The notes beneath the pieces are model-generated. The model worked only from the letters and a program-made list of their open reading frames with translations. It did not search any database and was not told where the DNA came from. From Eledone cirrhosa (Eukaryota), in assembly GCA_964016885.1 (NCBI GenBank), contig OZ024753.1, positions 39,122,001 through 39,186,000 on the forward strand: a DNA stretch of 64,000 nucleotides. The letters run 5' to 3'. Shown in pieces: positions 44,982 through 48,969 of the stretch. The translations under genes and the position numbers were made by a program. Position 1 is the first letter of the stretch. The number at the start of each line of letters is the position of its first letter.

Positions 44982-45565
44982 TTTCGTTTCTGAATTTGTT
45001 TAGCAAGATTCTTTATCTGAAAACGTGTGTTGAAACCGATATTGTTATACTTTGGGAGGGTCATGTTGCCAATAAGAAACACACGCACCAGTTGCTTTCA
45101 CTTCAATTTATTATAATAAATTTATAAATTTAGGAATTTATAAATTTCCGGTTGGGTGGTTGGTTCCACAACCAGATGGTTGTTTATATAGTGTCAAAAT
45201 TCTTTCGTCACACATTCTGTGACCTCTTCAGTAACTGGGGATTCTTATCTTTGTTTTTTGTGCCTCTCCTGTGTTCTGTCCTACGCCATCTTGTTTTTTT
45301 TTTGGGGGGGGGGGGGGTTGTTGGCGTAGGACAGAACAATGGAGAGGCATAACAAACAAAGAAAAGAATCCCCAGTCACTGAAGAGGTCACAGAATGTGT
45401 GACGAAAGGACTTTGACAATATATAAACAACCATCTGGTTGTGGAACCAACCAACCGGAATTTATAAATTCCTAAATTTATAAATTTATTATAATAAATT
45501 GAATTGAAAGCAACTGGTGCGTGTGTTTCTTATTGGCAACATGACCCTCCCAAAGTATAACAATA
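44982..45565. mobile_element. Family B fold-back: ~245-bp arms plus 58-bp tail in (TA)n
   Basis: Arms 45040-~45288 and ~45322-45565; tail 44982-45039. Confidence 0.9.
45374..45418 (+). ncRNA. Hammerhead-like motif (family B)
   Basis: gtca-CTGAAGA-g-GTCACA-gaatg-TGTGAC-GAAA-G-ga-C-TT|tgac; one extra G before stem II. Confidence 0.55.
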
Positions 45566-45833
45566 CTATATATATATATATATATATATATATATATATA
45601 TATATATATATAACTTTGATAACTTTGATAGGTTTCGGCCAGTATTGACCCAGGCCATGTCTAACTTAATAACACGATATATAATTATATACATACATAC
45701 ACAAGCACATATCTACAGTGCCGTTTGCTTGGTTATTTTCTGTTTACCTTTTACGTGCATACAGACACACACATGCACACATGCATATATATATATATAT
45801 ATATATTATATATATATATAATATATATATATA

Positions 45834-46092
45834 ATATAAGAACAAAAGATGGTTAAAAGAGTTTCACGTATTTTATTATGCGCATTTCAAAAACAAATAT
45901 CATCATGCAATAATATTGATATTTGTTTTTGATATTTGTTTTTGAAATGCGCATAATAAAATACATGGAACTCTTTTAACCATCTTTTGTTCTTATATAT
46001 TATGTATACTCAAGTCCTACAAACTGTAGAGTGCTTCTTATCCGATATCTGCATTGCTTTATTGTACTACAATAAAACTCACCTCCTACATT
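45834..46092. mobile_element. Family D fold-back with tail
   Basis: Arms 45834-45901 and 45931-45998; tail to 46092. Confidence 0.85.
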
Positions 46093-46151
46093 ATATATAT
46101 ATATATATATATATATATATATATATATATATATATATTATATAAAAATAT

Positions 46152-46390
46152 AGTAATAATAATAAACTTGAAGACTAAAATCCAAAGAGGGCTCGATAAG
46201 GATAAATATATATCAAATATATAAGAACCGTAGAGCAAATATTTATTAAAATAACAGATTAAAGTTTAAGCAAAGAATCGCTGCTTTCACCCTTAACGGG
46301 ATCTTCTGAAACTAACAAAGTCAATCTGTGAACGCAGAAGTGGATATTTCAAAAAACGTTGCAACCGGAGGAAGACAGGAAGACGATACT
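46152..46390 (-). mobile_element. Family E element with full tail
   Basis: Matches 54618-54770 and the reverse complement of 2760-2910. Confidence 0.8.
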
Positions 46391-47423
46391 GTATGAAGAT
46401 ATAAATATCAAAATGACTAAAGGCCAGCCAGCGATTTGTACACAATGCTTGTCAGATGTTATACCCTCATCCCTGGTTATATTACAGGTATATTATAACA
46501 TAAGTATAGCTATAAAACACATCTTCATTTAGTCGATCATATCAACGCAAATACTTAATTCTGCAAGTCAGGTACTTATTTTATCGATCTCTCTTGTTTT
46601 CGAATGTTTTGTCGGAACGTAAACACACACACAGACACAAACATAGTTATTGACACTCACACGCACTCACACACACCCACTTCTCTCTCTCTCTCTCTCT
46701 CTCTCTCTCTCTCTCTGTCGCTCTCTCTCTCTCTGTCTCCCTCTTTCTCTCTCTCTCTCTCTCTCTCGCCTTCTCTCTTTATATATATATATATATATAT
46801 ATATAAAGGCAAAATAGACCCTAGTGGGATTTGAACTGTGAAAGAAGAGAGCCGAAAGAAATACTGAAAAGTATTCCAACAACTCACTCTCTCTCTCTCT
46901 CTCTCTCTCTCTCTCTCTGTATATATATATATATATATATATATATATATATATATAGAGAGAGAGAGAGAGAGAGAGAGAGAGAGAGAGCGAGAGAGAG
47001 AGAGATATGTATATAAACAAACACATACATGTAAATATGTATGCATATATACATATAACATGTATATTTGTGGGTGTCTGTCTGTTTATATATATATATA
47101 TATATATATATATATATATATATATATATATATATATATATATATATATATATATATATATATATATATATATATTTATATATATATATATATATATATA
47201 TATTCGGATCTAGGTGTCGAAATAGTCGGAGCTCATCCAACTGACTCTTTTCCTATACATAAAATATATATATATATATATATATATATATATATAAATA
47301 AATATATATATATATATATATATATATATATATATTATATATATATATATATATATATATATATATATAATAAATATATATATATATATATATATATATA
47401 TATATATATATATATATATATAT

Positions 47424-47620
47424 AACAAAGGAATTGTGGTAAGGAACCTGATGGACGATAACGCACCAGAGTACTCAATATTTAGGGGAGTAGAGTGGGA
47501 AATAGGAAAAAGTATGACCCCGACGGCAGAGCTCAAGCCGTTTCGACGGCTATTTCTGGACTAAATTAGAAATAGCCGTCGAAGCGACTTGAACTCTGCC
47601 GTCGGGTTCATACTTTTTCA
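47424..47620. mobile_element. Family C fold-back with tail
   Basis: Arms ~47504-47557 and ~47567-47619. Confidence 0.85.
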
Positions 47621-48452
47621 TATATATATATATATATATATATATATATATATCATATATATATATATATATATATATATATATATATATATATATATAT
47701 ATTTATATATATATATGAATATATATATATATATATACATATATACATACACACACACACACACACACACACACACACACATATATATATATATATATAT
47801 ATATATATATATATATATGTATATATATATATATATATATTTATATATATATATATATATATTTATATATATATATATATATATATGAATATATATATAT
47901 ATATATATGTATACACACACACACACATATATATACATATATATATATATATATATATATATATATATATATATATATATATATATATATATATATATAT
48001 ATATATATATATACATATATATATATATACACACACACAACACACATATTTATATATATATATATATATATATATATATATAATTATATATATATATATA
48101 TATATACTGAAATGCTACTCACAACTGCCACTATCACTTCATGACGCTGATGAGATGCTGAGATGCTGAGATGCTGAGATGCTGTGATGCTGCTACTATT
48201 TCTGCAGCTGTTGTTGATACTGCAACCATTATTGCGCTGCTTGCTACTACTTCTACCACTCCTCTAGAACTTCAATACAGCGCTACCGACATTGCAAAAC
48301 TTTACGTAGTAGCACCGCTGTTTGATGTAGCTGTAACTTCGATTACAAACTATAAGCTTGTACCATAAATAAAATACACTAAATCAGCGTATATAATTGA
48401 CACACACATGCACACATGCATATATATATATATATATATATATATATATATA

Positions 48453-48969
48453 TATTGTTATACTTTGGGAGGGTCATGTTGCCAATAAGAAACACACGCA
48501 CCAGTTGCTTTCACTTCAATTTATTATATATTTATAAATTTATAAATTTATAAATTTATAAATTTCTGGTTGGTTGGTTGGTTCTACAACCAGATAGTTG
48601 TTTATATATAGTCATAGTTCTTTCGTCACAAACTCTGTGACCTCTTTATTGATTGGGGATTCCTTTCTTTGTTTCTATGCCTCTCCTTTGTTCTGTCCTA
48701 CGCCATTTTGTTCACTGAAGAGGTCACAGAGTGTGTGACGAAAGAACTATGACTATATATAAACAACTATCTGGTTGTGGAACCAACCAACCAACCAGAA
48801 ATTTATAAATTTTTAAATTTATAAATTTATAAATATATAATAAATTGAAGTGAAAGCAACTGGTGCGTGTGTTTCTTATTGGCAACATGACCCTCCCAAA
48901 GTATAACAATATCGGTTTCAACACACGATTTCAGATAAAGAATCTTGCTAAACAAATTCAGAAACGAAA
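48453..48969. mobile_element. Family B fold-back with tail on the right; HHR-like motif at 48715-48754
   Basis: Arms 48453-~48645 and ~48717-48912; tail 48912-48969 is the reverse complement of 44982-45039. Confidence 0.9.

What the first reader, a model, noticed from the sequence alone, without database searches (positions are those of the whole stretch)
44982..48969. Fixed asymmetric architecture: one arm ends at a family-specific breakpoint, the other carries a tail
Seen: in family B both palindromes stop the short arm at ..gtataacaata then TA repeats, while the long arm continues through the same ~58-nt tail (44982-45039; 48912-48969). The same rule holds for A (..atattgt|, ~85-nt tail), C (..ttcct|, ~80 nt), D (..ttcttatat|, ~90 nt) and E (..ttattttaat|). 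The inner fold-back point varies between copies. Inference: two distinct priming sites on the element RNA/cDNA anneal to the two TA ends of the target, so the integration mechanism can be read from the sequence.
Basis: partly seen in the sequence, partly recalled or inferred. Interest (0 to 1): 0.75.

Follow-up and report, generated by a model that had tools for sequence, protein, structure and literature searches.

The report
Penelope retrotransposon ends primed twice
These lopsided mirror-image DNAs in TA repeats are truncated head-to-head insertions of Penelope-like jumping genes, a known kind; almost every pair has its short tail on exactly one arm, which likely means the element's RNA is copied twice, once from each cut end of the target DNA.

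Summary
The asymmetry is real and genome-wide, but it is the published 'tail' signature of Penelope-like retroelements (PLEs). Family B is the 3' end of a Neptune/Nematis-type PLE (RT, GIY-YIG, hammerhead motif); A, C, D and E carry Hydra-clade motifs. In 1 Mb fetched without a query, arm ends fall on two sites per family (60 nt apart in B); 112 of 115 terminal head-to-head pairs use one of each. Two adjacent internal RT start sites were shown in vitro in 2024. Added here: the tail-less arm reaches further 5' than the tailed arm in 22 of 43 B pairs, which excludes simple fold-back copying there; both sites carry 2-6 nt matching (TA)n, helpful but not required; 12-bp target duplications occur; inner junctions are not dispersed in C, E and B but cluster at a possible transcription start. 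Best model (inferred): both ends of a staggered cut prime on element RNA, one at each site, and the two cDNAs are joined head to head. Earlier agents of this scan reported the same architecture and pairing in this and other octopus genomes. Known kind; moderate interest.

The parts
44957..44982 (.). (TA)n target run left of family B copy 1; its last 4 bases match the ATAT of priming site 2
44983..45296 (-). B copy 1 tailed (long) arm: PLE 3' UTR, hammerhead motif, ORF start, tail
   Evidence: (L037)
44983..45038 (-). B copy 1 unshared tail, 56 nt; in tandem copies it is about codons 10-27 of the ORF
45193..45235 (-). minimal hammerhead motif on the long arm (core CTGAAGA starts 45231); bounds approximate
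45297..45321 (.). 25-nt T/G-rich filler at the head-to-head junction, not matched to the element
45322..45565 (+). B copy 1 tail-less (short) arm ending at priming site 1
45375..45417 (+). minimal hammerhead motif: stem I GTCA/TGAC, core CTGAAGA at 45379, 6-bp stem II, GAAA
45567..45612 (.). (TA)n target run right of copy 1
48420..48455 (.). (TA)n target run left of family B copy 2 (overlaps site 1 microhomology)
48452..48712 (-). B copy 2 tail-less arm; reaches 59 nt further 5' than the tailed arm; hammerhead core mutated
   Evidence: (L001)
48711..48968 (+). B copy 2 tailed arm; hammerhead core at 48715, ORF ATG at 48887, site 1 ATAT at 48909-48912
48913..48968 (+). B copy 2 unshared tail, 56 nt
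48969..49109 (.). (TA)n run right of copy 2
7764..8301 (.). family A palindrome (Hydra-type PLE), arms 100% identical over 198 nt, tail left
47425..47619 (.). family C palindrome (Hydra-type), tail left
51090..51280 (.). family C palindrome, tail left, short arm followed by (CT)n
45824..46091 (.). family D palindrome (Hydra-type), tail right
26689..26864 (.). family D palindrome, tail left
46153..46390 (-). family E tailed arm (Hydra-type), no adjacent partner seen
49110..49270 (.). sixth family (F) with the same architecture, tail about 37 nt; no ORF linked

Best explanation
The palindromes are 5'-truncated head-to-head insertions of endonuclease-bearing Penelope-like retrotransposons in (TA)n, and each is likely made by priming reverse transcription from both ends of the cut target, one end at each of two fixed internal sites on the element RNA. 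Shown: identity as PLE, two 3' ends per family, one-of-each pairing, non-nested arms, TA-like bases at both sites, 12-bp duplications in a few copies. Inferred: the GIY-YIG domains of a protein dimer cut both strands about 12 nt apart leaving 3' overhangs; one end primes at site 1, the other at site 2 (60 nt downstream in B, about 80-90 in A, C, D, E), so only the second cDNA copies the tail; both cDNAs stop early or run off the RNA 5' end and are joined by short microhomology or filler. Whether one RNA or two serve as template is open; one RNA held by an asymmetric dimer is the simpler way to get one of each. The clustered inner junction in C, E and B would mark the transcription start in the pseudo-LTR.
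For: PLE identity: L004 continues from the arm into an RT (YVDD) plus C-terminal GIY-YIG ORF; 744-aa frame in L036, best hit Octopus vulgaris 66%; in 22 of 30 loci found with the ORF N-terminus the arm and tail run straight on into the ORF. Two ends: (two query sets without the tail). Raw reads of three RAD-seq runs with the same species label as the best holder show TA-consensus loose ends at the predicted family A site 1 (4346, 5027, 6612 reads). Pairing: 112 heterotypic, 3 homotypic, 4 not terminal of 119 pairs; 40 of 41 in the query-free 1 Mb. Non-nesting: tail-less arm reaches >15 nt further 5' in 22 of 43 B pairs, 7 of 9 in the query-free set; A 6 of 12, C 5 of 24, E 5 of 12. Arms of a pair share subfamily letters in 26 of 26 pairs (0-3 mismatches at diagnostic columns), median distance 2.7% within and 5.9% between. 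Modal TA microhomology B1 4 nt (46 of 54), B2 4 (49 of 58), A1 2 (12 of 12), A2 6 (15 of 16), C1 3 (8 of 8), E1 3-4 (21 of 28); product of per-site null chances about 1e-10 (my product values). Inner junction overlap of 2 nt or more in 19 of 29 insert-free joins against 15% expected; 14 of 43 have filler. 12-nt duplications in L011, L086, L092. In vitro precedent: both strands cut and extended, two internal start sites bounding the tail, predicted dimer (PMC11167929).
Against: No intermediate or biochemistry for these families. PMC11167929 saw no difference in start site between strands and no homology between primer and RNA, and here imperfect targets use the sites with 0-3 matching bases. 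Three homotypic pairs exist (E L272, L280; C L180). Only 5 of 13 insertions with imperfect flanks show a duplication of 12 nt or more, 2 of them periodic; 8 show 5 nt or less. Arm similarity could also come from conversion between arms; the partner was the nearest arm for both sides in only 2 of 26 pairs. If one RNA is shared, the second RT must displace the first cDNA; no pile-up of tailed arms at site 1 was seen in B. Hydra families share ancestry, so the microhomology product overstates independence. The transcription-start reading rests on motifs judged by eye and recalled, with no RNA data. Site 2 of family A was not among the loose ends listed.
Confidence: 0.78

Rival explanations
1. One cDNA (or an antisense RNA) folds back and copies itself, and the tail is trimmed from one arm when the endonuclease resolves the intermediate (self-priming model of PMC3846280; resolution idea of PMC8557442).
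For: Both ideas are in print. Many family C pairs are nearly symmetric with short loops (19 of 24 start within 15 nt), and inner joins carry microhomology.
Against: A fold-back copy must lie inside the tailed arm; the tail-less arm reaches further 5' in 22 of 43 B pairs, including window copy 2 and L046 (tail-only long arm, 1.3-kb short arm). Tail ends match RT start sites in vitro.
Confidence: 0.1
2. Two independent ribonucleoproteins, or two successive insertions into one TA run, each choose either start site at random and end up back to back.
For: Both ends are about equally common; TA runs are hit repeatedly; 3 homotypic pairs exist.
Against: Random choice predicts half homotypic; seen 3 of 115. 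No TA lies at the inner junctions, arms share subfamily, and one duplication brackets the whole pair. Two RNAs held by one asymmetric complex are not excluded.
Confidence: 0.08
3. The palindromes are miniature DNA transposons with terminal inverted repeats, or assembly fold-back artefacts.
For: Short palindromes in TA resemble TA-targeting MITEs (recalled).
Against: Arms continue into RT-GIY-YIG ORFs, 5' ends vary, the two termini differ, arms diverge up to 10%, and raw reads from other runs show the same end.
Confidence: 0.02

Closest known systems
EN+ Penelope-like element insertion units with inverted 5'-truncated pLTR and one-sided tail (Craig et al. 2021 PMC8557442; Arkhipova et al. 2013 PMC3846280)
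   Same: Head-to-head inverted truncated copy, tail at one end, partial tandems, hammerhead in the pLTR, (TA)n targets, tail inside the first codons of the ORF (family B), short target duplication.
   Different: Tails here are about 56-90 nt rather than 30-40; one-of-each pairing is counted (112 of 115); non-nested arms argue against the self-priming explanation given in PMC3846280.
PAc / Poseidon of Anolis carolinensis in vitro (Frangieh et al. 2024 PMC11167929)
   Same: Two adjacent internal RT start sites bounding the tail, near the ORF start; AT-rich target; both strands cut and extended.
   Different: Different clades; here both sites carry short TA-matching bases, whereas PAc was described as non-homologous; that paper does not assign one site to each target end or explain the palindromes in the main text I read.
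Hydra clade of C-terminal EN+ PLEs (PMC8557442 section 11)
   Same: Families A, C, D, E: DKT (A), CxCX5C linker and no CCHH (D, E), CxxC and CxH around the EN end (A, C, D), (TA)n targets.
   Different: No tree was built; each family was checked on only part of the ORF; A has a 3' UTR over 1 kb.
Neptune/Nematis clades of PLEs
   Same: [quoted passage not shown]
   Different: Which of the two clades was not resolved.
Twin priming of LINE-1 (recalled, not read)
   Same: Second target strand primes on the same RNA and gives an inversion joined by microhomology.
   Different: L1's second site is variable and the two cDNAs cover different parts; here both sites are fixed and the cDNAs overlap, giving a palindrome.

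Membership tests
EN+ Penelope-like elements (family B) | single ORF with RT | tested here: met
   YVDD motif in 744-aa frame; Pfam RVT_1 E 0.00096 but below its cut-off; 122 homologues
EN+ Penelope-like elements (family B) | C-terminal GIY-YIG endonuclease with CCHH | tested here: met
   VVY-SIRC-TEGQC-RNKNIV-YIG and downstream histidines by motif; no Pfam GIY-YIG hit
EN+ Penelope-like elements (family B) | partial tandems forming pseudo-LTRs | tested here: met
   22 of 30 loci with ORF start have the 3' end directly upstream
EN+ Penelope-like elements (family B) | hammerhead motif in the pLTR | tested here: met
   core, stem I and 6-bp stem II, matching the minimal type in PMC4209133; Rfam gave no hammerhead match (searches listed rows, 61)
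EN+ Penelope-like elements (family B) | hammerhead self-cleavage | not testable with these tools
   stem III is 1-2 bp; activity unknown
EN+ Penelope-like elements (family B) | inverted truncated copy and tail at one end | tested here: met
EN+ Penelope-like elements (family B) | target-site duplication | tested here: met
   12 nt in 3 non-periodic cases of 8 B insertions with imperfect flanks
EN+ Penelope-like elements (family B) | intron retention | not tested
   no RNA data
Neptune/Nematis clades (family B) | CX2-5CxxC linker before the EN | tested here: met
   C-IDKK-C-IT-C
Neptune/Nematis clades (family B) | RT phylogeny with named references | not tested
   no named reference sequences were returned
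Hydra clade (A, C, D, E) | DKT motif | tested here: met
   family A only; others not reached
Hydra clade (A, C, D, E) | CxCX5C linker and no CCHH | tested here: met
   E and D; not reached for A and C
Hydra clade (A, C, D, E) | CxxC and CxH around the conserved E and N | tested here: met
   A, C and D
Hydra clade (A, C, D, E) | RT phylogeny | not tested
   no tree built
Non-LTR retrozymes | head-to-tail tandem units each with a type I hammerhead, non-coding | tested here: not met
   units are head-to-head ends of coding elements; definition from bioRxiv 10.64898/2026.07.22.740005
MITEs / TIR DNA transposons | fixed symmetric termini and fixed length | tested here: not met
   termini differ and 5' ends vary

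The most novel reading that the evidence does not exclude
Penelope-like elements integrate by fixed twin priming: a dimer cuts (TA)n with a 12-nt stagger and starts both target ends on one RNA at two sites that have evolved TA-matching bases; priming at the copy of these sites nearest the RNA 5' end gives run-off cDNAs, so the mini-palindromes record both RT start sites and the transcription start. This would replace the self-priming explanation of PLE head-to-head repeats and hold across two clades.
Probability: 0.5. Interest if true: 0.6.

Novelty: new member of a known kind. Interest (0 to 1): 0.4.

Why it matters
How PLEs, the sister group of telomerase, form their inverted ends is listed as open in PMC8557442 and PMC11167929. 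This genome holds roughly 10 family B insertions per Mb, enough to count products: one-of-each pairing and non-nested arms turn the in vitro two-site result into a specific, testable integration model and argue against a published alternative. It also explains a large share of the hairpins in octopus TA microsatellites. The architecture itself is not new, and other windows of this scan already reported it.

Tried and rejected
A sharp 5' stop of tailed B arms 4 nt before the hammerhead core (16 arm ends at L004 1500/1501 in the 30 loci) was rejected as a query artefact: the same query without its first 35 nt found nothing, and 0 of 10 tailed arms in the query-free 1 Mb stop there; those arms were left out. 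The microhomology figure (1e-14) was inflated because BLAST ran through mismatches; one search replaces it. Genome searches with short or common words were empty and show nothing. Rfam gave only microsatellite miRNA noise in the rows listed and no hammerhead. No protein gene was found among 106 long frames, which are mostly simple-repeat frames. No RNA holder listed. Family F could not be tied to an ORF. One RNA versus two could not be told from arm identity. Loci dropped before pair counts: window duplicates and overlapping fetches (15 ids); 4 pairs that read through into the ORF were set aside as not terminal. undercounts long C pairs because the reference is cut at 1.16 kb; arm-level counts are 19 of 22 short and 23 of 36 long arms at -54 to -68. 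[quoted passage not shown]

Full report
Observation. The window is a microsatellite-rich stretch of a 3.0-Gb animal genome; the best protein hit is from Octopus vulgaris, so the host is likely an octopod. Both family B palindromes are present with the stated asymmetry. The unshared tail is 56 nt; the two breakpoints are 60 nt apart when the shared ATAT at each is counted. Families A, C and D show the same layout in the window, E only as single arms, and a sixth family F was found.

What it is. Forty genomic copies of B were scored. [quoted passage not shown] In 22 of 30 loci found with the ORF's N-terminal part, the arm and tail continue directly into the ORF, so the tail is about codons 10-27 of the next copy in a partial tandem. 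Each intact arm carries a minimal hammerhead motif of the type described in PMC4209133 (first of four parts read). These features define EN+ Penelope-like elements; the linker points to Neptune or Nematis (PMC8557442, passages). A, C, D and E connect to ORF pieces with Hydra-clade motifs (criteria from section 11 of PMC8557442).

Two ends. Queries without the tail gave 3' ends almost only at two positions (22 and 21 of 49 ends; 18 and 20 of 45 ends; several of the rest are internal breaks). In 1 Mb fetched without a query every family was bimodal. Raw reads from three RAD-seq runs give thousands of TA-consensus loose ends at the predicted family A site 1; site 2 had low depth and was not among the rows listed.

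One of each. Of 119 head-to-head pairs in four families, 112 join a site-1 arm to a site-2 arm, 4 read through into the ORF and are not termini, and 3 are homotypic; in the query-free set 40 of 41 are heterotypic. The two arms share subfamily letters in 26 of 26 B pairs tested, those with at least 140 nt overlap. The arms are not nested: the tail-less arm extends further 5' in 22 of 43 B pairs. A fold-back copy cannot do that, so in those pairs both arms were copied from a longer template, most simply the RNA. This bears against the self-priming model in the Discussion of PMC3846280.

Target contact. After site 2 the template reads ATATCG in 23 of 24 read-through copies, the same as after site 1. 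Contiguous TA-alternating overlap is 2-6 nt at all six sites with 8 or more arms. Of 64 paired insertions, 13 have imperfect flanks; three show a non-periodic 12-nt duplication and use the same sites with only 0-3 matching bases by my reading of the printed junctions, two more show periodic 12-14 nt repeats, eight show none. So pairing helps but does not set the site, which fits the non-homologous start seen in vitro. A duplication with priming from both 3' ends implies 3' overhangs of about one helical turn (inference).

Inner junction. Joins show more microhomology than chance or short filler. An apparent stop just before the B hammerhead was a query artefact. Real clusters remain in C, E and B. 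In C the cluster sits on TTAGTC with an AT-rich TATT(T/C)AAATA 32 nt upstream; in E on TTAG(T/C)T; in B between GCGCATGCGCA and AAAATGGCG, which I recall as NRF1- and YY1-like. The Drosophila Penelope promoter lies in the pLTR upstream of the 34-bp repeat (PMC2377424, passages). I infer that these cDNAs ran off the RNA 5' end; an RT stall at structure or simple repeats is not excluded, and B's cluster has only 2 of 7 arms in the query-free set.

Comparison. The inverted truncated copy with a 30-40 bp tail often at one end is stated in PMC8557442 and PMC3846280. PMC11167929 (main text to Methods; supplements searched with no text hit) shows that the tail is the interval between two internal RT start sites, that both strands are cut and extended, and predicts a dimer. 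It does not link one site to each target end. Eight searches found no such statement, but older key papers were not available. Six earlier notes of this scan report the same PLE reading, one in this genome with nine in ten pairs tailed on one arm; they are unreviewed and were seen after my reading was formed.

Verdict. Real, explained in kind, new members of known clades. The counted pairing, the nesting test, the TA-matching sites and the inner-junction clusters sharpen a mechanism that a specialist could test. Interest 0.4.

Noticed in passing
L246:4782-4873, L246:5931-6022, L255:492-584: Tail-only family E pieces with TA runs on both sides (3 of 19 tailed arms in the query-free set; 0 in A and C). 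Could be hairpin deletion of the palindrome or a cDNA stopped at site 1.
   Followed up: partly
window 46153-46390, 2760-2909, 54620-54909: Family E has CAGAAGA where the hammerhead core CTGANGA is expected, followed by a stem and GAAA (read by eye).
   Followed up: no
L173, L196, L214, L250, L057, L082: A sister family of B (protein 42-79% identical over pieces) shares the ORF start and tail and ends about 11-15 nt earlier in the alignment.
   Followed up: partly
L038, L046, L059 (L004 position about 356-364): Several B copies break at the same place in the RT; in L038 and L059 a SINE-like repeat sits there with a short duplication.
   Followed up: no
window 3054-3241, 6560-6737, 39488-39674, 40574-40952, 44261-44458, 55208-55411, 57332-57816: Abundant 190-nt SINE-like repeat family, at least ten copies in the window.
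   Followed up: no
window 42160-42372 and 50851-51051: tRNA-like-headed repeat; the 42160 copy interrupts a 430-nt repeat whose other copy is 25403-25820.
   Followed up: no
window 45297-45321: Junction filler of copy 1 is T7-G14-TTGT, an unusual homopolymer tract for such a join.
   Followed up: no
window 2310-2432 and 2496-2588: Two more small palindromes of unassigned families next to TA runs.
   Followed up: no
window 62373-63434: Tandem array of about 75-nt units with (GTG)n cores.
   Followed up: no
L157-L256: 42 CTGANGA-stem-GAAA motifs in the query-free 1 Mb, without a shuffle control.
   Followed up: no
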